Positions 1-27,801 of a DNA stretch of 27,801 bases are shown in pieces. The translations under genes and the position numbers were made by a program. The DNA is taken from IMG/VR virus record IMGVR_UViG_2802429218_000003, positions 1 to 27,801 of that record, one strand, 5' to 3'. Position 1 is the first letter of the stretch. Every line of letters starts with the position of its first letter. The stretch comes from a virus. Lineage: Duplodnaviria > Heunggongvirae > Uroviricota > Caudoviricetes. Under the pieces are notes generated by a model. It searched no databases. It saw nothing but the letters and a program-made list of their open reading frames with translations, and was not told the DNA's origin.

Positions 1-45
1 ACATCGCCGGGCGTGCGCCAGAATCGCTGATTCAGTTTCTGTCAT
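1..45 (-). CDS. K: Tail assembly protein K, N-terminal fragment (runs off window edge)
   Basis: Minus-strand ATG at 43-45 followed by codons reading MTETESAILAHARRC, which matches the recalled start of lambda gpK; lies directly downstream of L as in lambda. Only 15 codons are in the window. Confidence 0.5.
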   Translation of the reverse strand, partial: MTETESAILAHARRC

Positions 46-49
46 GGAT

Positions 50-748
50 TTACTGCGAAAGTTTGTTAATGGAAAGGTAACCGCCAAAGTTGCCGAGGTT
101 ATTGCGAAACTTACAACCGCTCAGGCATTTGCTGCACTTATCCTTCGTGATATCGGACGTCGGCTGATCATATTCATCCGCGACCGCCGGACCGTGATAA
201 CCGCACTCATCGCCGCGATAGGTCCAGGTGCAGGTATTAGCCAGCATGATGCGCCCCGGAAAAACGGCACCATCCGTTTCCGTCGGTGTGGACAACACAA
301 AGGAGGCACTGACCGCGCTCAGTTCGCTGCACTGCTCGATGCGCCAGCGGCTGAGCACCTCCTGCTCCGGATCGGCGTCACTGTTTCCGTTGACGAAGTT
401 CACCGCATCCAGAAAACGGGCGTAAACCTTACGCCTGACCACCGTTCCGCCGACCAGACTCTGCAGATCTTCCGCCATACCGGTGACCATACCGTGCAGG
501 TTAGAAACCGTCAGTGTCGGACGGGCAGCACTGCCCTTGCCGTTCAGTTCAAATCCTGTCCCCTGAATGGGGTATGCCTGATACTGCCGCCCCTGCCAGG
601 TGACCGGCTCACCTTTTTCGTTCTGCTCATTACAGAAAAAATAACGTTCTCCACCGACCTCTGTCAGGTCGATTTCCCAGAGCACCACGCTGGCCGACTG
701 CTCCGCACGGGTGCATTCATTCAGTGTTTCCTGCCGGATATCCTGCAT
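50..748 (-). CDS. L: Minor tail protein L
   Basis: 232-aa ORF in the track; length and sequence match recalled lambda gpL; synteny M-L-K. Confidence 0.9.
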   Translation of the reverse strand: MQDIRQETLNECTRAEQSASVVLWEIDLTEVGGERYFFCNEQNEKGEPVTWQGRQYQAYPIQGTGFELNGKGSAARPTLTVSNLHGMVTGMAEDLQSLVGGTVVRRKVYARFLDAVNFVNGNSDADPEQEVLSRWRIEQCSELSAVSASFVLSTPTETDGAVFPGRIMLANTCTWTYRGDECGYHGPAVADEYDQPTSDITKDKCSKCLSGCKFRNNLGNFGGYLSINKLSQ

Positions 749-1077
749 CAGTTCACCACCTGTTCAAACTCTGCGCTGAACTCAACACGCAACATACTGA
801 CCCGCGACGACCATTTTGCGCAGGTCACCTTTATCTGCCGGTAGCCATAAGGCGGCGTCCACAGAAAGGCCTTCCAGCCCCCGTGCTCTGCCAGAAACGA
901 TTCCAGTGCCGTGGCCTCCTCGCGGGGAACAGAAAGCGTCACGCTGTACGTTTTCAGGTCGGCGTTCAGCCCGGCAGGCGCACGCTGAGAATAGCCATCA
1001 CCAAAGCGCACCTTTCTTACAGAAGGGGCCGAAGCCACATCCATACCGGGTTTCACTTTCCAGCGGAAGGTTTTCAT
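748..1077 (-). CDS. M: Minor tail protein M
   Basis: 109-aa ORF; matches recalled lambda gpM in length and sequence; overlaps the H stop and L start as in lambda. Confidence 0.9.
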   Translation of the reverse strand: MKTFRWKVKPGMDVASAPSVRKVRFGDGYSQRAPAGLNADLKTYSVTLSVPREEATALESFLAEHGGWKAFLWTPPYGYRQIKVTCAKWSSRVSMLRVEFSAEFEQVVN

Positions 1078-3653: not shown

Positions 3654-4080
3654 ACCGGACTCCTCCTGCGATCCCTTCTGATACTGTCATCAGCATTACG
3701 TCATCCTCCGTCATGTCCGCCACATCCGGGGAAGCGGGGATAACTTCTTTCCCGTCCGGGCCAAAACGAACGCCTCCGGCAAGCCCTGCCGCTTTCTGCA
3801 TCAGCACATCATCTTCAGGCTCTTCGTCAGCCTCGCGCCGGTTCAGCAGACTGAAATCCAGCGGATGCATATCCGGATCGCTGAAAAACAGGCTGAGCAC
3901 GGTGTATGTCAGCCCGGAAAAGTGCATATCCAGCAGAACATCATGAAAATAATGGGTACTGTAAAAGCGGTGCCAGTCGGCATACTCCGTGGATGACATC
4001 CCGGCAAGCATGGCGCGCCAGTCGGGTCGCCCCATCTCACGCGCCAGTTTCAGGGCAAAACTCAGCTCACCGTCGAACAC
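3646..4080 (-). CDS. T: Tail assembly chaperone T frame (expressed as G-T fusion by -1 frameshift)
   Basis: 144-aa ORF in the -1 frame relative to G, overlapping the G 3' end; lambda arrangement with slippery heptamer at 4071-4077. Confidence 0.8.
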   Translation of the reverse strand: MFDGELSFALKLAREMGRPDWRAMLAGMSSTEYADWHRFYSTHYFHDVLLDMHFSGLTYTVLSLFFSDPDMHPLDFSLLNRREADEEPEDDVLMQKAAGLAGGVRFGPDGKEVIPASPDVADMTEDDVMLMTVSEGIAGGVRYG

Positions 4081-4484
4081 TTTCCCGCAGAAACAGGCTC
4101 TGCAGGCCCGGCGTCATCTGCCTGTTCAGGTGCATCATTCACAACAAACTCAGACATACCGGACAGACGCATTACCACATTTTCAGCCTGAGCAATTGCC
4201 TCTGTGGGCCAGGTGGTAAGCACTTCCTGCTCAATTTGTTTAACGGCTTCATTCATGGATGGCATCTTTGTCTTCTGCGGATGGTTATGCCACAGGGACA
4301 TCGCCACCAGAAAAGCACCGGTTCTGACGAGATCTTCCACGCTCACCTGTCGATTGACACTGGAGCCCGCCTGTTCTGCCTGTCGTTTCAGCAGGGCGAG
4401 ATGCTCAATACGCTGCAGGGCTGACAGTTCAGAAAGCGTGACGCTCACACCGTTATATTCAAATGATTCGGTTTTCAGGAACAT
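4062..4484 (-). CDS. G: Tail assembly chaperone G
   Basis: 140-aa ORF, same length as lambda gpG, located between V and T. Confidence 0.9.
   Translation of the reverse strand: MFLKTESFEYNGVSVTLSELSALQRIEHLALLKRQAEQAGSSVNRQVSVEDLVRTGAFLVAMSLWHNHPQKTKMPSMNEAVKQIEQEVLTTWPTEAIAQAENVVMRLSGMSEFVVNDAPEQADDAGPAEPVSAGKCSTVS
4071..4077 (-). other. Programmed -1 ribosomal frameshift slippery heptamer GGGAAAG (G to G-T fusion)
   Basis: Minus-strand sequence GGGAAAG sits near the end of the G reading frame where the T frame opens, as in lambda. Confidence 0.7.
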
Positions 4485-4499
4485 CGCTGACTCTCCGGA

Positions 4500-5240
4500 T
4501 TAACTGTCGGTGACGGTGATTTCTGCAACCGCAGCAAGTTCACCATTACCGGATACAACCGGAATGTTGACCTTGCCTGCAGCAACGCCGTTCACGGTGA
4601 TGGTCATACCGCTGACCGACACGGTGGCTTTTGTTTTATCCGCAGACACCGCACGGAAGCTCTTGTCGGTTGCGCCCTCCGGCTGGAATGCCACGGTCAG
4701 CGTGGTGCTCTGCCCTTTCACCACCGAAGTGCTGGCAGGCGTCACGGTCATGCCGGTTGCCGCTGTTACCGTGCTGCGATCTTCTGCCATCGACGGACGC
4801 CCCACGTTGGTGACTTTCACCGTGCGGGTGATCACTTCCTTCGCCGTCACCGCCTTACCGATACTGCTGACCCAGCCGCGGAACACATCGACCGTGCCGT
4901 TCGGGAAGCGGATTTTATAGGCACGGGTATCCCCTTCATTAAACCACGCCAGCAGCGCCTGCTGCCCCTGCTCTCCGGGCATCCACGCCAGCGTGAAGCT
5001 GGTATCTCCGGCGGATTTCTGACCCTGCCCGGTCGCGGTCCAGTCCGCATCTTCATCATCGAGATAACTGTCGTCACAGGACTCAGCGGTCAGTTCGCCG
5101 GGCGTCAGGTCTTTAACTTTTGCCAGACGCAACCAGTCAACGTCTGAAAGCGGATTCGCATAAGGGTTACCGCTCCCCTTATAAACCCACAGGGTGGTCC
5201 CGGCACCTTTCACCGGCATTGTAGGATTTGGTACAGGCAT
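4500..5240 (-). CDS. V: Major tail tube protein V
   Basis: Track ORF is 256 aa; the internal Met at 5238-5240 gives 246 aa beginning [10 protein letters not shown] (as lambda gpV) and has a GAGGA Shine-Dalgarno upstream. Confidence 0.9.
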
Positions 5241-14954: not shown

Positions 14955-15238
14955 TTTGTCGCTCCATGCGCTTGCTCTTCATCTAGCGGTTAAAATATTA
15001 CTTCAAATCTTTCTGTATGAAGATTTGAGCACGTTGGCCTTACATACATCTGTCGGTTGTATTTCCCTCCAGAATGCCAGCAGGACCGCACTTTGTTACG
15101 CAACCAATACTATTAAGTGAAAACATTCCTAATATTTGACATAAATCATCAACAAAACACAAAGAGGTCAGACCAGATTGAAACGATAAAAACGATCTTG
15201 CAAACTACGCACTCTCATATCATATGGAAGGTTTATCT

Positions 15239-15649
15239 ATGGATCAGGTAGTCATTTTTAAACAAATATTTGATAAAGTTCGAAACGATTTAAACTATCA
15301 ATGGTTTTATTCTGAGCTAAAACGTCACAATGTCTCACATTACATTTACTATTTAGCCACAGAGAATGTTCATATTGTATTAAAAAATGATAATATAGTG
15401 TTATTAAAGGGCCTAAAAAACATTGTGTCTGTCAAATTTTCAAAGGATAGGCATCTTATAGAAACGACCTCTAATAAGCTGAAATCCAGAGAGATCACAT
15501 TTCAGGAATACAGAAGAAACCTTGCTAAAGCAGGAGTTTTTCGGTGGGTTACAAATATCCACGAACAAAAAAGATATTACTATACCTTTGATAAATCATT
15601 ACTCTTTACTGAAAACATACAGAGCACATCACAAATATTTCCACACTAA
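15239..15649 (+). CDS. Hypothetical protein, DUF1398/YbcV-like
   Basis: Track ORF 15224-15649; second Met at 15239 has a GAAGG Shine-Dalgarno and gives 136 aa; AT-rich; a lambda right-end ORF is recalled as similar but not identical. Confidence 0.6.
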
Positions 15650-16433: not shown

Positions 16434-16906
16434 ACCTCAATCTCTCTGACCGTTCCGCCAGCTTCTTTGAATTTTGCAATCAGGCTGTCAGTCTTATGCT
16501 CGAACTGACCATAACCAGCGCCCGGCAGTGAAGCCCAGATATTGCTGCAACGGTCGATTGCCTGACGAATATCACCGCGGTCAATCATCGGTAAAGCGCC
16601 ACGCTCTTTAATCTGCTGCAATGCCACAGCGTCCTGACTTTTGGGAGAGAAGTCTTTCAGGCCAAGCTGCTTACGATAGGCATCCCACCAACGGGAAAGA
16701 AGCTGGTAACGTCCGGCTGCTGTTGATTTGAGTTTTGGGTTTAGCGTGACAAGTTTGCGAGGGTGATCGGAGTAATCAGTGAATAGCTCTCCGCCAACAA
16801 TGACGTCATAACCATGATTTCTGGTTTTCTGTCTTCCGTTATCAGTTCCCTCTGACCACGCCAGCATATCGAGGAACGCCTTACGTTGATTATTGATTTC
16901 CACCAT
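16430..16906 (-). CDS. R: Endolysin R (lytic transglycosylase)
   Basis: 158-aa ORF matching recalled lambda R ([42 protein letters not shown]...). Confidence 0.95.
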
Positions 16907-17213
16907 CTTCTACTCCGGCTTTTTTAGCAGCGAAGCGTTTGATAAGCGAACCAATCGAGTCAGTACCGATGTAGCCGATGAACACGCTCGTTATATAAGC
17001 GAGATTGCTACTTAGTCCGGCGAAGTCGAGAAGGTCACGAATGAACCAGGCGATAATGGCGCACATCGTTGCGTCGATTACTGTTTTTGTAAACGCACCG
17101 CCATTATATCTGCCGCGAAGGTACGCCATTGCAAACGCAAGGAATGCCCCGATGCCTTGTTCCTTTGCCGCGAGAATGGCGGCTAACAGGTCATGTTTTT
17201 CTGGCATCTTCAT
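16890..17213 (-). CDS. S: Holin/antiholin S (dual start MKM)
   Basis: 107-aa ORF matching recalled lambda S including the Met1-Lys2-Met3 dual-start motif. Confidence 0.95.
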
Positions 17214-17454
17214 GTCTTACCCCCAATAAGGGGATTTGCTCTATTTAATTAGGAATAAGGTCGATTACTGATAGAACAAATCCAGGCTACTGTGTTTAGT
17301 AATCAGATTTGTTCGTGACCGATATGCACGGGCAAAACGGCATGAGGTTGTTAGCGCAACCTCCTGCCACCCGCTTTCACGAGGCCATGTGTAGAAGGCC
17401 GCAGCGTAACTATCACTGATGAGTTCAGGATAGCCAGTGGCTACGGCTCAGTTA

Positions 17455-17530
17455 TGGTGCTGGTTAACGGACTTGAACCGCTACCCATTCGCTTACAAGG
17501 CGACTGCTCTACCATTGGAGCTAAACCAGC
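17455..17530 (-). tRNA. tRNA-like gene, anticodon UGU (Thr-like)
   Basis: 76-nt minus-strand sequence folds as a cloverleaf: acceptor stem GCTGGTT/AACCAGC (7 bp), D-stem GCTC/GAGC, anticodon loop CTTGTAA, T-arm AGCGG-TTCAAGT-CCGTT, 3' ACCA. Confidence 0.65.
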
Positions 17531-17535
17531 ATATT

Positions 17536-17610
17536 TGGCGGGACAGCGTGGACTCGAACCACGATAAGAAGGTTAACAGCCTTCCGTAATGACCTTTATA
17601 CGACTGACCC
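17536..17610 (-). tRNA. tRNA-like gene, anticodon GUU (Asn-like); possibly degenerate
   Basis: 75-nt minus-strand sequence: T-arm CGTGG-TTCGAGT-CCACG, anticodon stem GAAGG/CCTTC with loop CTGTTAA, 3' GCCA; acceptor stem has one T-T mismatch and the D-stem is weak. Confidence 0.5.
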
Positions 17611-17611
17611 A

Positions 17612-17670
17612 AATAAAAAATCCCGAAACCGTTGTGCAGGCTCTAACTATTACCTGCGAACTGTTTCGGG
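17612..17670 (-). terminator. tR' late terminator (3' end of the 6S pR' leader RNA)
   Basis: Minus-strand long hairpin CCCGAAAC...GTTTCGGG followed by ATTTTTTAT; aligns with the recalled lambda tR' region. Confidence 0.7.
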
Positions 17671-17806
17671 ATTGCATTTTGCAGACCTCTCAGCCTGCGA
17701 TGGTTGGAGTTCCAGACGATACGTCGAAGTGACCAACTAGGCGGAATCGGTAGTAAGCGCCGCCTCTTTTCATCTCACTACCACAACGAGCGAATTAACC
17801 CATCGT
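17671..17806 (-). ncRNA. pR'-initiated 6S leader RNA body (approximate start; terminates at tR')
   Basis: Region between pR' and tR' aligns with the recalled lambda 6S RNA/qut region; the total leader to the tR' end is about 194 nt. Confidence 0.5.
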
Positions 17807-17813
17807 TGAGTCA

Positions 17814-17842
17814 AATTTACCCAACTTTATTCAATAAGTCAA
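17814..17842 (-). promoter_or_regulatory. Late promoter pR' (-35 TTGACT, 17-bp spacer, -10 TAAATT), overlapping qut
   Basis: Minus-strand hexamers read directly with 17-bp spacing about 45 bp downstream of the Q stop; matches recalled lambda pR'. Confidence 0.65.
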
Positions 17843-17884
17843 TATCATGCCGTTAATATGTTGCCATCCGTGGCAATCATGCTG

Positions 17885-18508
17885 CTAACGTGTGACCGCA
17901 TTCAATATGTTGTCTGCGATTGACTCTTCTTTGTGGCATTGCACCACCAGAGCGTCATACAGCGGCTTAACAGTGCGTGACCAGGTGGGTTGAGTAAGGT
18001 TTGGGATTAGCATCGTTACAGCGCGATATGCGGCGCTTGCTGGCATTCTTGAATAGCCGACACCTTTGCATCTTCCGCATTCTTTCTCAACAACTCTCCC
18101 CCACAGCTCTGTTTTGGCAATATCAACCGCACGGCCTGTACCGTGGCAATCTCTGCATCTTGCGCCCGGCGTCGCAGCACTACGGCAATAATCCGCATAA
18201 GCGAATGTTGCGAGAACTTGCAGTACCTTTGCCTTAGTATTTCCTTCAAGCTTTGCCACACCACGGTATTTCCCCGATACCTTGTGTGCAAATTGCATCA
18301 GATAGTTGATAGCCTTTTGTTTGTCGTTCTGGCTGAGTTCGTGCTTACCACAGAATGCAGCCATTCCGAATCCGGCTTGTGATTGCGCCATCCCCATAGC
18401 AGCCATCACATCAGTACCGGAAAGAGAGTCAGAGGCCGTAGCCCGTGGTGAGTCGCTCATCATCGGGCTTTTTGGCGAATGATATTTAGCTACGCTTTCG
18501 AGTCTCAT
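17885..18508 (-). CDS. Q: Late gene antiterminator Q
   Basis: 207-aa ORF matching recalled lambda Q in length and sequence. Confidence 0.95.
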
Positions 18509-24627: not shown

Positions 24628-25335
24628 ATGGTTCAGAATGAAAAAGTGCGCAAAGAATTCGCCCAGCGGCTAGCGCAAGCCTGTAAAGAAGCTGGTCTTG
24701 ATGAACATGGTAGGGGAATGGCCATAGCCCGTGCCCTTTCTCTTTCGTCCAAAGGCGTTAGCAAATGGTTTAATGCTGAGTCTTTACCGCGTCAGGAAAA
24801 AATGAATGCGCTTGCGAAATTTCTAAACGTTGATGTTGTTTGGCTTCAGCACGGCACTTCGTTAAATGGAGCGAATGATGAAGATACTCTTTCATTTGTT
24901 GGCAAATTTAAAAAAGGGTTAGTGCGCGTGGTTGGTGAGGCAATTCTTGGTGTTGATGGTGCCATCGAGATGACCGAAGAGCGCGATGGGTGGCTCAAAA
25001 TTTATAGCGATGATCCAGATGCCTTTGGCCTTCGTGTGAAAGGAGACAGCATGTGGCCCAGAATAAAATCAGGAGAATATGTACTCATTGAGCCTAACAC
25101 CAAAGTATTCCCGGGTGATGAGGTGTTTGTCAGAACCATCGAAGGACACAACATGATCAAGGTTCTTGGCTATGACAGAGATGGAGAATACCAATTTACA
25201 AGCATCAACCAGGACCACAGGCCAATAACGTTGCCTTATCATCAAGTAGCAAAGGTGGAGTATGTGGCTGGTATTCTGAAGCAATCTCGCCATCTGGATG
25301 ACATTGAGGCAAGGGAATGGCTGAAAAGTTCGTGA
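24628..25335 (+). CDS. cI: CI-type prophage repressor (N-terminal HTH, C-terminal LexA-like S24 peptidase domain)
   Basis: 235-aa ORF divergent from cro; HTH-like N-terminus; C-terminal domain with the GDSM serine motif (VKGDSMWPRI) typical of LexA/CI autocleaving repressors; sequence is not lambda CI. Confidence 0.9.
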   Translation: MVQNEKVRKEFAQRLAQACKEAGLDEHGRGMAIARALSLSSKGVSKWFNAESLPRQEKMNALAKFLNVDVVWLQHGTSLNGANDEDTLSFVGKFKKGLVRVVGEAILGVDGAIEMTEERDGWLKIYSDDPDAFGLRVKGDSMWPRIKSGEYVLIEPNTKVFPGDEVFVRTIEGHNMIKVLGYDRDGEYQFTSINQDHRPITLPYHQVAKVEYVAGILKQSRHLDDIEAREWLKSS

Positions 25336-25440: not shown

Positions 25441-26178
25441 TTGCAAAATAACTATCTACAGGTTATAGCCTATACTAGGCGCATGAATGATGGTATGACC
25501 AAGCCATTCCTTTGTACTTGCCAAGATGGGCTGGCTTACATAGTTAAAGGAAGGCCAAAACTTCGCCAAAAAGAGCTTGTAGCAGAATTTATTGCCGCCC
25601 ATCTAGCAAAACAGATAGGTCTGCCATGTCCTGATTTTTGCATTGTTGATGTTGATTGTGGGTTAATCGAGTTCATGCCTGACTTGCGTGGTGAGCTTTT
25701 GCCTGGACCTGCATTTGCTACCCGCTTTATTGAAAATGCATCAATCATAAATATTCAACAAGCAAGGAGTGCTGTAACCATTCAGGAACAAAAGAAAATA
25801 TTCTTCTTTGACCGCTGGATAAACAACGCAGACAGATCATTGACTGACATTGGTGGTAATGTAAACATAATTTACGATGCATTTAACAATAGGTATTACC
25901 TGATTGACCATAATCTGGCGTTCGCGCAGGATACAAGATCTCATGAGTATGATGTCCATGTGTATTCGCCGAATGGAAGACCGTGGGTTTTCGACATGCT
26001 CGACGAACCCGAACTGATGGATCTTGCAAATGATGCTATTAGTTCAGTAGAGGAGAAATTTAATCAGCTTCCGGATGAGTGGTTTTCAACCGATGAAGAA
26101 CGAAGGCTAATGCTGAATGAGATAATGAACTGCCTGAACAGAGTGCACGACAGAGAGTTTTGGAGTAACATCAAATGA
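25441..26178 (+). CDS. HipA-like kinase-domain protein (standalone C-terminal-domain type; start codon uncertain)
   Basis: 245-aa track ORF starting at TTG 25441 (AGGA 10-13 nt upstream); alternative ATG starts at 25483 and 25495. Segment ELVAEFIAAHLAKQIGLPCPDFCIV resembles recalled E. coli HipA (EYYCLLLAKELGLNVPDAEII); FFFDRWINNADRS aligns with the HipA catalytic loop VFQWLIGATDGHAKN but has Ser in place of His. Confidence 0.7.
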   Translation: MQNNYLQVIAYTRRMNDGMTKPFLCTCQDGLAYIVKGRPKLRQKELVAEFIAAHLAKQIGLPCPDFCIVDVDCGLIEFMPDLRGELLPGPAFATRFIENASIINIQQARSAVTIQEQKKIFFFDRWINNADRSLTDIGGNVNIIYDAFNNRYYLIDHNLAFAQDTRSHEYDVHVYSPNGRPWVFDMLDEPELMDLANDAISSVEEKFNQLPDEWFSTDEERRLMLNEIMNCLNRVHDREFWSNIK

Positions 26179-26993
26179 CCACACCATGCCTGTATAGCAT
26201 TATTAGATATGCTCCATATGCAGAAACCGAAGAGTTTGCTAATGTCGGTGTGGTTCTTTGTGCCCCGAAATTAGGTCAGTTTTGCTTTAAACTGACCCAA
26301 AGCAACAATGCCAGAGTAAAAAACTTTTTTCAGGATGAAATCATTTTCCCTCACGCGAGGGATGCAATTGCAAGAGAGCTAAAATTTGCTCAAGAGCAAA
26401 GTTATAAATTCAATTCTCCTGAAAAATTAGCAAATTTTTTCAACTACTTAATTGGCAGGAAAGAGTCAATCATTCATTTTAGCTCTGCAAGAGTTGCAAT
26501 GTCTGCTTGTCCACAAGACATGATGCACATACTTTTTAATAAGTTTGTACATCATTCAGAAATAACAAAAGAATCTCGTGAGACCATCCTGACGAGAGAG
26601 CTTAAGCATCGTTTCTCTCATTATAACGAACTCAGGAACGCCTTTAAAAAGGAAATGCTTGGTGGTGAACTAACGCGGTTTTCTGTACCATTTGTTGCCC
26701 GTCACGATGGAGAGATTTTATGTGCTATCAAACCCCTAACATTCACTCAGGACAAGCCTGAGAAAATGTTGGAGCACTGCGACTCTTGGACGGCCAAAAT
26801 TCTGCGCGCCGCCAGTGAAAAAATTTTATCTGTCTCAAATGTGTTATTTACGATAGATGCACCTCGCCAGCCAAGTGAGCTTGAGGTAAAAGCGATGAGT
26901 GAGATTCGTAAGACATTCGATGAGAAAGGTATAAATCACGTAGAGCATCAGGATGAAGCATCAATAGTAAAGTTTGCTAAGCAAGCAATTTAA
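26175..26993 (+). CDS. Hypothetical protein, partner of the HipA-like gene (possibly DUF3037-like)
   Basis: 272-aa ORF whose ATG (26175-26177) overlaps the upstream TGA (ATGA coupling); the N-terminal motif YSIIRYAPYAETEEFANVGVVL is tentatively recalled as characteristic of DUF3037; no catalytic motif recognised. Confidence 0.7.
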   Translation: MTTPCLYSIIRYAPYAETEEFANVGVVLCAPKLGQFCFKLTQSNNARVKNFFQDEIIFPHARDAIARELKFAQEQSYKFNSPEKLANFFNYLIGRKESIIHFSSARVAMSACPQDMMHILFNKFVHHSEITKESRETILTRELKHRFSHYNELRNAFKKEMLGGELTRFSVPFVARHDGEILCAIKPLTFTQDKPEKMLEHCDSWTAKILRAASEKILSVSNVLFTIDAPRQPSELEVKAMSEIRKTFDEKGINHVEHQDEASIVKFAKQAI

Positions 26994-27339: not shown

Positions 27340-27437
27340 GATCACCCAACCACATGAGCTGTGGGATGCAATGCCGAAGCAACCGTCTCAGGAGGAGCTT
27401 CGAGATTGCATCACCAAAGTTTATTCGGGAGGAATCT

Positions 27438-27710
27438 ATGTCCAGAAAAACAGAATTTAAAGGCACCGCAGCTTCTCGCCGTAGAGCTCGTCGCGCAAAC
27501 CTGCAAAGTCAGGAGGCGATTAGCTCCGACAAGCTACACAGGCCAACCACCTCACGAGTGGTCTTGCAATGCAAGCGCAAACCAGCAATGAGAGCAGAAG
27601 TTATAACTCTGACAACGTTGATCAGAAAATATGAAGGTTCAACTTGTCTTCCAAACGTAGCTCTTTACGCGGCAGGCTACCGGAAATCAAAACAACTGAC
27701 GGCGAGATGA
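27438..27710 (+). CDS. N: N-type transcription antiterminator (arginine-rich motif; P22 gp24-like C-terminus)
   Basis: Track ORF 27354-27710; ATG at 27438 has a GGGAGG Shine-Dalgarno and gives 90 aa; N-terminal ARM TAASRRRARRANLQ; C-terminus LPNVALYAAGYRKSKQLTAR matches the recalled P22 N C-terminus. Confidence 0.8.
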   Translation: MSRKTEFKGTAASRRRARRANLQSQEAISSDKLHRPTTSRVVLQCKRKPAMRAEVITLTTLIRKYEGSTCLPNVALYAAGYRKSKQLTAR

Positions 27711-27801
27711 CGATCCCCGCCGTCGGTGATGCTGCCAACTTACTGATTTAGTGTATGATGGTGTTTTTGAGGTGCTCCAGTGGCTTCTGTTTCTATCAGC
27801 T

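What the first reader, a model, noticed from the sequence alone, without database searches (positions are those of the whole stretch)
17455..17610. Two tandem tRNA-like genes immediately downstream of tR' in the late-operon leader
Between the tR' terminator and the conserved S upstream region there are two cloverleaf-forming sequences 5 nt apart, with canonical T-arms (GGTTCGAGTCC and GGTTCAAGTCC) and CCA ends. Anticodons read UGU (Thr-like) and GUU (Asn-like). Lambda itself has no tRNAs here, whereas Stx-type lambdoid phages carry tRNA genes at this position that are expressed by Q-dependent readthrough. The Asn-like copy has an acceptor mismatch and a weak D-stem, so it may be degenerate.
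Basis: seen in the sequence. Interest (0 to 1): 0.55.

Follow-up and report, generated by a model that had tools for sequence, protein, structure and literature searches.

The report
Known phage tRNA-Asn/tRNA-Thr pair
A lambda-like prophage carries two genuine tRNA genes, Asn(GUU) and Thr(UGU), directly after its late terminator; the pair is already annotated in many phages, and published experiments show the identical Thr tRNA replaces the host tRNA that the P2 OLD defence nuclease destroys.

Summary
ARAGORN and Rfam both call tRNA-Asn(GUU) at 17536-17610(-) and tRNA-Thr(UGU) at 17455-17530(-). They are 5 nt apart, both encode CCA, and they lie between lambda-type tR' and the S holin.

The pair is not new. 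The same 156 bp occurs in phages 21, HK446, Sf6, SfI, Kapi1 and mEp506 and in 369 of 5,426 complete E. coli genomes, usually annotated. Relative to lambda it is a precise replacement of about 160 bp.

The tRNA-Thr is 76/76 identical to phage 21 tRNA-Thr21 and matches HK446's. Two 2025-26 studies show this tRNA resists the P2 OLD nuclease and substitutes for cleaved host tRNA-ThrU. Its conserved G27·A43 mismatch and lost CNG motif are the published resistance determinants.

The tRNA-Asn is not degenerate. It scores 55 bits, six of its base pairs covary, and it is identical across distant phages. Its function is untested. It lacks the OLD and PARIS-AriB recognition features that host tRNA-Asn carries, so a parallel replacement role is plausible but inferred.

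Codon supplementation is not supported for the late genes. Q-dependent expression is inferred from anatomy only.

Verdict: already known, modest interest.

The parts
17885..18508 (-). Lambda-type late antiterminator gene Q (207 aa)
   Evidence: ORF. The region is 97-98% identical to lambda, HK446 and Kapi1, where it is annotated as Q.
17814..17842 (-). pR'-like late promoter (TTGACT, 17-nt spacer, TAAATT)
   Evidence: Promoter scan. The segment is identical to lambda in alignment A1. It is the only promoter-like site on this strand in 17150-17950.
17611..17672 (-). tR' terminator: long hairpin (17620-17672) plus the run UUUUUUAUUU ending at 17611, one base before tRNA-Asn +1
   Evidence: Fold at -28.3 kcal/mol, z -5.0, 0 of 200 shuffles as stable. 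Matches lambda tR' up to ...GGGATTTTTTAT apart from one base in the hairpin. The simple terminator scan did not flag it because its loop is longer than the scan allows.
17536..17610 (-). tRNA-Asn(GUU), 75 nt with encoded CCA and discriminator G
   Evidence: ARAGORN. Rfam 55.3 bits. Identical to the phage 21 and phage L copies. Covariation in 6 pairs. Cloverleaf-like minimum-energy fold, -21.6 kcal/mol.
17531..17535 (-). 5-nt spacer AAUAU between the two tRNAs
   Evidence: Sequence. In the family survey the spacer is AATAT in 50 loci and AACAT in 45.
17455..17530 (-). tRNA-Thr(UGU), 76 nt with encoded CCA. Identical to phage 21 tRNA-Thr21, and HK446 matches 100% over the pair
   Evidence: ARAGORN. 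Rfam 61.5 bits. 76/76 identical to phage 21. HK446 100% over the 156 bp. G27·A43 mismatch invariant in 18 variants, and 4 covarying pairs.
17454..17612 (-). The 159-bp segment that replaces lambda 44782-44944 (163 bp): 2 nt, then the two tRNAs, then 1 nt
   Evidence: Breakpoints taken from exact flanking matches GGGATTTTTTAT and AACTGAGCCGTAGCC.
17214..17453 (-). Lambda-homologous leader upstream of S, where homology to lambda resumes
   Evidence: Alignment A1.
16890..17213 (-). Holin gene S (107 aa), first gene of the late operon downstream of the tRNAs
   Evidence: ORF. Annotated as holin in matching records.

Best explanation
These are two functional, phage-borne elongator tRNA genes, tRNA-Asn(GUU) followed by tRNA-Thr(UGU). 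They form the cassette already known from phages 21, HK446, Sf6, SfI, Kapi1 and mEp506, here sitting in an otherwise lambda-like prophage.

Expression (inferred from anatomy): the cassette lies exactly between the U-tract of tR' and the leader of S. It should therefore be transcribed as the first part of the pR' late transcript, and only when Q-modified RNA polymerase reads through tR', apart from any basal leak.

Processing and charging (inferred from standard E. coli tRNA biology): RNase P and 3' trimming would release two CCA-ended tRNAs. ThrRS and AsnRS would charge them, since their identity elements are present.

Function of the Thr (shown by others for the identical sequence): it is a nuclease-resistant replacement for host tRNA-ThrU. 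ThrU is a single-gene tRNA in K-12 that decodes ACA and is the prime target of the P2 prophage OLD Toprim nuclease. It is also a main target of PARIS AriB. The phage copy has a shortened anticodon stem (G27·A43) and has lost the paired CNG motif (C28U/G42A), so it survives and keeps ACA decoding going during late protein synthesis.

Function of the Asn (inferred, untested): it is most likely a second replacement tRNA of the same kind. Host tRNA-Asn(GUU) is a secondary AriB target and carries the paired CNG motif that OLD recognises. The phage copy lacks that motif and also lacks U39 of the AriB UAAU motif.
For: Real tRNAs.

Same cassette elsewhere: searches (369 of 5,426 E. coli genomes, PGAP-annotated; phage 21, HK446, Sf6, SfI, Salmonella P22-like phages; Kapi1 annotation), PMC3636060 (SfI paper).

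Precise placement after tR'. In 125 related loci tRNA-Asn almost always starts right after a terminator T-run, in at least three different terminator contexts. In phage 21 the annotated terminated RNA ends at 4701 and tRNA-Asn starts at 4702.

Selection on structure: Asn has 6 pairs changed on both sides (0 of 500 shuffles), and Thr has 4 (5 of 500). G1-C72 and C2-G71 are invariant in Thr.

Identity with tested tRNAs: Thr is 76/76 identical to phage 21 and HK446 matches 100% over the pair.

Published function: PMC12445682 shows that P2-OLD kills by cleaving tRNA-ThrU at paired CNG motifs, that tRNA-Thr21 protects and resists cleavage, and that a shorter stem plus C28U/G42A explain this. Preprint 10.64898/2026.07.10.737580 shows that HK446 Thr(UGU) restores plating of HK97, HK542 and Bas34 on OLD+ cells.

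Determinants read directly from sequence:
- host thrU: CUG/CAG, 5-bp stem, UAAUCA
- phage Thr: UCG/CGA, G·A mismatch, UAAGCG
- host asnT: CGG/CCG, UAAUCC
- phage Asn: AAG/CUU, UAACCU

AriB targets Lys(UUU), Thr(UGU) and Asn(GUU) and cuts between 40 and 41; a U39A change abolishes cleavage of tRNA-Lys (PMC12409363).

Array variants at the same locus carry Gly(UCC), another tRNA depleted by OLD.
Against: No expression, processing or charging data were found for this pair in a lambda context, so Q-dependence is inferred.

The preprint reports that viral Thr(UGU) alone did not rescue lambda itself from OLD, nor OLD toxicity in recB cells. The benefit may therefore be partial or depend on the phage.

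HK446 also carries a protein inhibitor of OLD (Oad2). The preprint's authors themselves suggest the tRNA may instead be an adaptation to temperate life.

For Asn there is no experiment at all. Asn(GUU) is not in the preprint's list of tRNAs most depleted by OLD. The cassette has no Lys(UUU), and the resistant T5 Lys(UUU) is required to bypass the B185 PARIS system. Klebsiella-type Asn variants regain a paired CNG motif. P1's independent Asn-Thr pair keeps CNG in Thr and UAAUCA in Asn.

The invariance of Asn positions 15-57 in my survey is partly forced by the search pattern.
Confidence: 0.75

Rival explanations
1. Codon supplementation: the tRNAs are carried to raise the supply of tRNAs for codons (ACA, AAC/AAU) that the phage uses more than its host does, which would speed late protein synthesis.
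For: The SfI paper reports an ACA bias in the phage compared with its host (17.3% against 7.1%). In this window ACA is 17.7% of Thr codons overall and 27% in the early, nin and immunity ORFs, against 10-19% in two MG1655 samples. thrU is a single-copy gene in the K-12 region examined, and the OLD paper describes ThrU as a low-abundance tRNA.
Against: The genes co-transcribed with the tRNAs show no enrichment. In the late operon ACA is 8.2 per 1000 codons (12.6% of Thr), against a pooled host value of 8.6 per 1000 (14.8%). Asn codons are 33 per 1000, against 37-46 in the host. The ACA-rich early genes would be expressed before a Q-dependent tRNA could help. The SfI authors found no bias for Asn and called its significance unclear. 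Both phage tRNAs differ from the host copies specifically in the anticodon stem, where nucleases act; a pure dosage role would not require that.
Confidence: 0.15
2. Compensation for integration: prophages carry tRNAs to replace host tRNA genes that they disrupt on integration. The OLD preprint suggests this for HK446.
For: Suggested in the discussion of preprint 10.64898/2026.07.10.737580. Many of these phages do integrate into tRNA genes (SfI at thrW; Kapi1 at argW).
Against: The isoacceptors do not match. Kapi1 integrates at argW and leaves it intact. SfI integrates at thrW, which to my knowledge encodes the CGU isoacceptor, not UGU. The same cassette occurs with at least three Q and terminator types and in both siphovirus and podovirus backbones. 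From established knowledge, lambda-type integrases target a non-tRNA site and phage 21 targets icd. The cassette sits in the late leader, not near att.
Confidence: 0.03
3. The Asn copy, or both copies, are decaying pseudogenes or hitch-hiking remnants with no present function.
For: Asn has U4·U69 and U13·U22 mismatches. In phage L and ST64T the second tRNA has clearly been altered and ARAGORN no longer calls it, so decay does happen at this locus.
Against: Asn scores 55.3 bits against a gathering score of 29. 90 of about 117 sampled loci carry the identical Asn sequence, in different flanking contexts. Compensatory double changes occur in the acceptor and anticodon stems, reached by 0 of 500 shuffles. 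The mismatch at 4:69 is retained rather than random. The minimum-energy fold is cloverleaf-like and about as stable as host asnT. G73 and the GUU anticodon are kept. The Thr is functional in published rescue assays.
Confidence: 0.04
4. RNA-processing role: the tRNAs serve mainly as RNase P and RNase E cleavage signals. These would sever the 6S-like leader from the late mRNA and set the 5' end and stability of the roughly 25-kb late transcript. Any decoding function would be secondary. This does not exclude the main explanation.
For: tRNA-Asn abuts the terminator U-tract with only 0-4 nt between them, in several unrelated terminator contexts. tRNAs embedded in operons are known processing sites (general knowledge).
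Against: Lambda and many relatives work well without the cassette. The specific isoacceptors and aminoacylation identity elements are conserved, which a pure processing signal would not need. No data support this idea.
Confidence: 0.05

Closest known systems
Phage 21 tRNA-Thr21 and HK446 tRNA-Thr(UGU), the OLD-resistant lambdoid phage tRNAs (Govande et al. 2025, PMC12445682; preprint 10.64898/2026.07.10.737580)
   Same: The tRNA-Thr sequence is 76/76 identical to phage 21, and HK446 matches 100% over the 156-bp pair. It occupies the same position after the late terminator and has the same upstream tRNA-Asn neighbour.
   Different: The host phage backbone differs. Here Q, tR', the lysis genes and the head and tail genes are lambda-type (96% identity over 87% of 25 kb), whereas phage 21 has Q21 and its own terminator. 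Neither paper mentions the adjacent tRNA-Asn, and the preprint describes HK446 as encoding a single tRNA.
The Asn(GUU)-Thr(UGU) cassette annotated in Sf6, SfI, Kapi1, mEp506, Salmonella P22-like phages and E. coli prophages
   Same: The same two genes at 97-100% identity, in the same order, with the same 5-nt spacer, between Q and the holin.
   Different: Nothing in the cassette itself. Flanking modules differ because lambdoid phages are mosaics. About 15 of the sampled loci have the lambda-type tR' context seen here, and 80 or more have the phage 21/P22 type.
Phage T5 tRNA-Lys(UUU), Thr(UGU) and Asn(GUU) variants that neutralise PARIS AriB (PMC11464382, PMC12409363)
   Same: The concept is the same: virus-encoded isoacceptors with substitutions at or beside the cleavage site replace cleaved host tRNAs. 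Two of the three isoacceptors are the same. The window's tRNAs also change positions 39 and 41, which are the positions changed in the resistant T5 tRNA-Lys.
   Different: They do not share descent. T5 is a virulent phage with a large tRNA array. This cassette has no Lys(UUU), and the resistant T5 Lys(UUU) is required to bypass the B185 PARIS system. Resistance of these two tRNAs to AriB has not been tested.
Stx phage 933W ileZ-argN-argO
   Same: tRNA genes located between Q, pR' and the late terminators on one side and the first late genes on the other. Readthrough of the late terminators would transcribe them.
   Different: The isoacceptors differ (Ile and Arg, for rare codons). The 933W record annotates a putative dedicated promoter pT and additional terminators. 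Here there is no room for a promoter between tR' and tRNA-Asn, and none was detected.
Phage P1 tRNA-Asn and tRNA-Thr tandem
   Same: The same two anticodons, adjacent, in the same order, in a temperate coliphage.
   Different: Independent descent: Asn is 45/76 identical and Thr 63/76. The genomic context differs. P1's Thr keeps the paired CNG motif and a 5-bp stem, and its Asn keeps UAAUCA, so the predicted nuclease-resistance features are not shared.

Membership tests
Bacterial-type elongator tRNA (Rfam RF00005) | Cloverleaf with 7-bp acceptor stem, D, anticodon and T arms, scoring above the family's gathering threshold | tested here: met
   61.5 bits (Thr) and 55.3 bits (Asn) against a gathering score of 29, full-length matches to model positions 1-71. 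ARAGORN calls both.
Bacterial-type elongator tRNA (Rfam RF00005) | Conserved tertiary and loop nucleotides: U8, A14, G18G19, U33, purine 37, T-loop GTTCRA, 3' CCA | tested here: met
   Read from the sequence and the cmscan alignment. Both have U8, A14, GG in the D-loop, U33, A37, GGTTCGA or GGTTCAA, and encoded CCA.
Bacterial-type elongator tRNA (Rfam RF00005) | Base pairs maintained by compensatory change among relatives | tested here: met
   Asn: 6 pairs changed on both sides, 0 of 500 shuffles. Thr: 4 pairs, 5 of 500 shuffles. Versions of the structure with the 3' partners slid by 1-3 columns pair in only 22-55% of cells. Caveat: the variants are close relatives, and part of the Asn sequence was fixed by the search pattern.
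tRNA-Thr accepted by E. coli ThrRS | Identity set G1-C72, C2-G71, G35, U36 (established knowledge, recalled from memory) | tested here: met
   All are present, and 1-72 and 2-71 are invariant in 18 variants. Charging itself was not testable here, but the identical tRNA rescues OLD toxicity in published assays.
tRNA-Asn accepted by E. coli AsnRS | Identity set G34, U35, U36 plus discriminator G73 (established knowledge, recalled from memory) | tested here: met
   Anticodon GUU and discriminator G are present. The discriminator is G in 11 of 12 variants. Aminoacylation is not testable with these tools.
Phage 21/HK446-type OLD-resistant tRNA-Thr(UGU) | Sequence identity with the experimentally tested tRNA | tested here: met
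   76/76 identical to the phage 21 copy in AJ237660. HK446 matches 100% over the 156-bp pair.
Phage 21/HK446-type OLD-resistant tRNA-Thr(UGU) | Shortened anticodon stem together with an altered paired CNG motif (28-30 and 40-42) | tested here: met
   G27·A43 mismatch. UCG/CGA in the phage against host CUG/CAG, that is C28U/G42A as described for Thr21. The mismatch is invariant in 18 variants.
Phage 21/HK446-type OLD-resistant tRNA-Thr(UGU) | Resistance to OLD cleavage and rescue of OLD-restricted growth | not testable with these tools
   Shown in the literature for the identical sequence. Not shown for this prophage, and lambda itself was not rescued by the Thr alone.
Nuclease-evading viral replacement tRNA (T5 anti-PARIS type), applied to the tRNA-Asn | Same anticodon as a host tRNA that a defence nuclease cleaves | tested here: met
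   The anticodon is GUU. Host tRNA-Asn(GUU) is a secondary but biologically relevant AriB target, and it carries the paired CNG motif (CGG/CCG) that OLD substrates share.
Nuclease-evading viral replacement tRNA (T5 anti-PARIS type), applied to the tRNA-Asn | Substitutions at or beside the cleavage site relative to the host tRNA | tested here: met
   Positions 36-41 are UAAUCC in the host and UAACCU in the phage. Positions 28-30/40-42 are CGG/CCG in the host and AAG/CUU in the phage. Klebsiella-type variants restore a paired CNG (CAG/CUG).
Nuclease-evading viral replacement tRNA (T5 anti-PARIS type), applied to the tRNA-Asn | Demonstrated resistance to cleavage and rescue of infection | not testable with these tools
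   No experiment on this tRNA-Asn was found in the literature searched.
Stx-phage late-leader tRNA cluster (ileZ-argN-argO) | Ile and Arg isoacceptors upstream of stx, with their own putative promoter | tested here: not met
   The isoacceptors differ, there is no stx, and no separate promoter was found. Only the position is analogous.

The most novel reading that the evidence does not exclude
The invariant partner, tRNA-Asn(GUU), is a second nuclease-resistant replacement tRNA that the OLD and PARIS literature has overlooked. On this reading the post-tR' slot of lambdoid phages is a small, Q-timed counter-defence tRNA island. Its contents (Thr UGU, Asn GUU, and in variants Gly UCC, Arg UCU and Phe GAA) would track the target lists of Toprim and other tRNases carried by competing P2- and P4-type elements. 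Variant arrays would be rebuilt by recombination with the host thrU-glyT operon and then mutated toward resistance, for example the chimeric Thr with a 3-bp anticodon stem in the Asn-Thr*-Gly(UCC) arrays.
Probability: 0.4. Interest if true: 0.5.

Novelty: already known. Interest (0 to 1): 0.28.

Why it matters
The pair links a textbook puzzle, P2 interference with lambda, to a natural countermeasure. A lambda-type phage that carries an OLD-resistant tRNA-Thr is the natural counterpart of the plasmid rescue experiments published in 2025-26.

The useful residue of this analysis is narrow. The tRNA-Asn that always accompanies the Thr has never been tested, and one paper missed it altogether. Yet it shows the same kind of anticodon-stem changes relative to its host counterpart. 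Testing it against OLD, PARIS and other tRNases is cheap. It could also explain why the Thr alone rescues some lambdoid phages but not lambda.

For genome annotation, the finding is routine.

Tried and rejected
1. Is lambda's replaced 163 bp (44782-44944) a decayed copy of the tRNA pair? Local and global alignment scores against the cassette are within the shuffle distribution (64 and 52 of 500 shuffles score as high). Rejected: this is a replacement by unrelated sequence.

2. A generic viral tRNA-Asn pattern returned 120 loci of mostly unrelated tRNA-Asn genes, at most 73% identical. It was no use for covariation and was replaced by a family-specific pattern.

3. Source genome and recombination module. 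A search with the immunity region found a different mosaic prophage that shares only cI, the HipA-like gene, the DUF3037 gene and N. Whether this prophage encodes Gam or another OLD trigger could not be determined, because the window ends in IS1 just past N.

4. Supplementary tables of the OLD paper (for the tRNA library sequences) are not held. Guo, Kainz and Roberts 1991 on the phage 21 late region is not held.

5. Expression evidence. The P22 OMV sRNA paper and the Sf101 paper had nothing relevant. The Kapi1 and BTP1 transcriptome papers mention the tRNAs only in passing.

Folding showed the hairpin.

7. A co-occurrence test of the cassette with old or ariAB across the 5,426 genomes was considered. 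It is not feasible because the search tool lists at most 60 records.
Full report
**1. The observation**

ARAGORN finds exactly two tRNA genes in the window, both on the minus strand: tRNA-Asn(GUU) at 17536-17610 and tRNA-Thr(UGU) at 17455-17530. Rfam's tRNA model matches both full length at 55.3 and 61.5 bits against a gathering score of 29, and nothing else in the window reaches any Rfam threshold. On the transcribed strand the order is Q (17885-18508), a pR'-like promoter (TTGACT-17-TAAATT), a 6S-like leader, the tR' hairpin (-28.3 kcal/mol, z -5.0), tRNA-Asn, tRNA-Thr, a 240-nt leader and S (16890-17213).

**2. What the locus is**

The window is a close relative of lambda itself, with 96% identity over 87% of 25 kb, including head, tail, lysis and Q genes. 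Aligned with lambda, the two sequences match through tR' up to ...GGGATTTTTTAT (one base differs in the hairpin) and run homologous again from AACTGAGCCGTAGCC onward. Between these points, 163 bp of lambda (44782-44944) are replaced by 159 bp consisting of 2 nt, the two tRNAs and 1 nt. Lambda's segment shows no significant similarity to the cassette, so this is a module swap. It is neither an insertion nor a decayed copy.

The same 156 bp is found at 99-100% identity in phages 21, HK446, Sf6, SfI, CurroJimenez and several Salmonella phages. It is annotated as tRNA-Asn and tRNA-Thr in Kapi1 and mEp506. It is present in 369 of 5,426 complete E. coli genomes, where PGAP annotates it. The SfI genome paper already describes the tandem pair downstream of Q and lists Sf6, ST64T, PS3 and phage 21 as sharing one or both genes (PMC3636060). 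The feature is therefore already known.

**3. Family survey**

In most of these loci the array is Asn-Thr (97 loci). Variants are Asn-Gly(UCC) (8 loci), Asn-Phe-Thr-Arg(UCU) with or without Gly (Klebsiella-type phages such as Mulock), and Asn alone (the L/ST64T type). tRNA-Asn nearly always begins right after a terminator T-run, in at least three unrelated terminator contexts: the phage 21/P22 type in 80 or more loci, the lambda tR' type in about 15, and a Klebsiella type without an adjacent T-run in about 7. In phage 21 the annotated terminated RNA ends at 4701 and tRNA-Asn starts at 4702.

**4. Are both genes functional?**

Covariation says yes.
- Among 12 distinct Asn variants, 6 pairs change on both sides, a level reached by 0 of 500 shuffles. 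Versions of the structure with the 3' partners slid sideways pair in only 33-55% of cells, against 90% for the real one.
- Among 18 Thr variants, 4 pairs change on both sides (5 of 500 shuffles), and the acceptor and T stems are 100% paired.

The two apparent defects are conserved features. The U4·U mismatch in Asn is kept in 10 of 12 variants, and G27·A43 in Thr is kept in all 18. The identity elements recalled from the literature are present: G1-C72, C2-G71, G35 and U36 for ThrRS, and G34, U35, U36 and G73 for AsnRS. Each tRNA folds on its own into a cloverleaf-like minimum-energy structure about as stable as its host counterpart. The Asn sequence is identical in phage 21 and phage L, although in L the neighbouring Thr has been altered beyond ARAGORN's recognition. 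One caveat applies: positions 15-57 of Asn were largely fixed by my search pattern, so their invariance carries no weight.

**5. Mechanism**

*Expression (inferred).* Only 0-4 nt separate the tR' U-tract from tRNA-Asn +1, and no other promoter-like site lies on this strand. The tRNAs should therefore be made only when RNA polymerase reads through tR', that is, after Q acts, apart from basal leak. I found no direct data. The BTP1 paper sets aside two tRNA genes at the equivalent position when it lists highly expressed prophage genes, which implies they are highly expressed in lysogen cultures. I did not verify that they are this pair, and BTP1 induces spontaneously at a high rate.

*Function of the Thr (shown by others).* Govande et al. 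2025 (PMC12445682) showed three things. [quoted passage not shown] Phage Thr(UGU) tRNAs rescue by replacing it. Phage 21's tRNA-Thr21 protects and resists cleavage because of a shorter anticodon stem and C28U/G42A. The window's Thr is 76/76 identical to that tRNA and shows exactly those features. A 2026 preprint (10.64898/2026.07.10.737580) found independently that HK446's Thr(UGU), which matches 100% over the pair, restores plating of HK97, HK542 and Bas34 on OLD+ cells. It does not rescue lambda itself, and it does not relieve OLD toxicity in recB cells.

*Function of the Asn (inferred).* PARIS AriB cleaves Lys(UUU), Thr(UGU) and, secondarily, Asn(GUU) between positions 40 and 41 within U36AAUC. 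A U39A change abolishes cleavage of tRNA-Lys (PMC12409363). Host asnT has UAAUCC and a paired CNG motif (CGG/CCG). The phage Asn has UAACCU and AAG/CUU. This fits a second replacement tRNA, but it is untested and several observations cut against it:
- Asn(GUU) is not among the tRNAs the preprint lists as most depleted by OLD.
- The cassette lacks Lys(UUU), and the resistant T5 Lys(UUU) is required to bypass the B185 PARIS system.
- Klebsiella-type Asn variants restore a paired CNG.
- P1's independent Asn-Thr tandem keeps the sensitive motifs.

**6. Rivals**

*Codon supplementation.* The late operon, which is what the tRNAs are transcribed with, uses ACA at 8.2 per 1000 codons (12.6% of Thr codons) and Asn codons at 33 per 1000. 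Two MG1655 samples give 5.5-12.3 per 1000 (pooled 8.6) and 37-46 per 1000. So there is no enrichment. ACA is enriched only in the early, nin and immunity ORFs (27% of Thr codons), which would be expressed earlier. The late genes still contain 35 ACA codons, 5 of them in the major capsid gene, so they do need a Thr(UGU) tRNA if the host's is destroyed.

*Compensation for a tRNA gene disrupted at integration.* Kapi1 integrates at argW and leaves it intact, SfI integrates at thrW, and the cassette occurs with many backbones. This is not supported.

*Pseudogene.* Rejected, as set out in section 4.

*A pure RNA-processing role.* This cannot be excluded as an extra function, but it does not explain the conserved identity elements.

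**7. Comparison and novelty**

The closest known items are:
- the identical phage 21/HK446 tRNA-Thr and the Sf6/SfI/Kapi1 cassette, of which this is a member;
- the T5 anti-PARIS tRNAs, which work on the same principle but are of unrelated descent;
- 933W's ileZ-argN-argO, which share the position but have different isoacceptors and a putative promoter of their own;
- P1's Asn-Thr tandem, which has the same anticodons but independent descent.

The finding is already known. What remains open is the role of the Asn. The SfI paper calls its significance unclear, and the OLD preprint overlooks it, describing HK446 as encoding a single tRNA.

**8. Verdict**

The function of one member is established in the recent literature, and the other offers a cheap, testable hypothesis. 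Interest is 0.28. The most novel reading that the evidence leaves open is that the Asn is a second counter-defence tRNA and that the slot after tR' is a small counter-defence tRNA island. I give that a probability of about 0.4, and it would be of moderate interest if true.

Noticed in passing
window 25483-26993 (+): Directly downstream of the cI-like repressor (24628-25335), where lambda has rexA-rexB, sit a HipA_2-family kinase-like ORF (231 aa, PF20613, E 1e-73) and a DUF3037 ORF (272 aa). They match PADLOC candidate system PDC-M66 A and B (E 1.6e-17 and 9e-15). This looks like a two-gene candidate defence or toxin module expressed with the repressor.
   Followed up: partly
window 27727-27801 (+): The window ends in the left inverted repeat of IS1 (GGTGATGCTGCCAACTTACTGATTTAGTGTATGATGG..., recognised from memory). 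It starts 17 bp after the stop codon of N (27354-27710). A query that included it matched 9,501 E. coli records, with a median of 10 places per genome. An IS1 here could separate N from the rest of the pL operon, so the prophage may be defective.
   Followed up: partly
L132, L140, L160, L205, L207, L216, L225, L236 (positions about 231-384 of the extracted regions); L234: The arrays that ARAGORN reports as 'Asn-Gly(UCC)' contain an uncalled middle tRNA-Thr-like gene in the one read in full (L132); the other seven have the same tRNA coordinates. Its 5' part is phage-type and its 3' part resembles host thrU. Its anticodon stem is mutated to ACUGA/UCAUC, leaving 3 bp and breaking the 3' CNG. It is followed by a Gly(UCC) that is 69-71/75 identical to host glyT. 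L234 has the unmutated chimera and a 74/75 glyT-like Gly. This suggests recombination with the host thrU-tyrU-glyT operon. Gly(UCC) is one of the five tRNAs the 2026 preprint reports as depleted by OLD.
   Followed up: partly
L003 1281-1352 (phage L; ST64T-type phages match at the same 88.6% identity): The tRNA-Asn is identical to the window's, but the second gene has diverged into a 72-nt sequence that the depositors annotated as tRNA-Leu(TAA). ARAGORN does not call it. By my reading it has C33 and lacks the long variable arm of a bacterial tRNA-Leu, so it is probably a decayed or repurposed tRNA-Thr.
   Followed up: partly
L004 1501-1820 (Klebsiella phage Mulock) and about 7 IMG/VR loci: Klebsiella-type versions of the slot hold Asn(GUU)-Phe(GAA)-Thr(UGU)-Arg(UCU), sometimes with Gly(UCC). 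Their Asn has compensatory changes, restores a paired CNG motif in its anticodon stem, and does not directly abut a terminator T-run.
   Followed up: partly
L255 1125-1278 (phage P1): P1 carries an adjacent tRNA-Asn(GUU)-tRNA-Thr(UGU) pair of independent descent (45/76 and 63/76 identity to the window's). The same two isoacceptors therefore recur together in unrelated temperate coliphages.
   Followed up: partly
HK446 record NC_019714.1 35097-35252 (hit H62): The HK446 GenBank and RefSeq records do not annotate either tRNA, and the 2026 OLD preprint says HK446 encodes a single Thr(UGU) tRNA. The record matches the window's full Asn+Thr pair at 100% identity.
   Followed up: yes
lambda NC_001416 44782-44944 (L002 789-951): The 163 bp of lambda that occupy the slot taken by the tRNA cassette have no detectable similarity to it, and I know of no assigned function for them apart from the end of orf-64. 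What lambda carries here is unexplained.
   Followed up: partly
window 15224-15649 (+); 3906-4424 (+); 44-844 (+): There are opposite-strand ORFs within or beside the late region. One is a DUF1398 protein (141 aa) between the lysis genes and the packaging genes. Two others (172 and 266 aa) have no Pfam or PADLOC match. They may be moron-type cargo.
   Followed up: partly
L129 (MAG labelled Segatella copri) and L133 (MAG labelled Collinsella sp.): Exact matches to the enterobacterial phage tRNA-Asn pattern occur on short contigs (3.9 and 6.9 kb) binned into gut anaerobe MAGs. These are most likely mis-binned enterobacterial phage contigs.
   Followed up: no
Kapi1 (L001 3491-3646), literature only: The Kapi1 lysogen transcriptome paper reports a clear transcript antisense to the two tRNAs, and notes a similar signal between the tRNAs and the holin gene in Salmonella prophage BTP1 (PMC12922286). 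No promoter-like site was found on the opposite strand of the window in 17150-17950.
   Followed up: no
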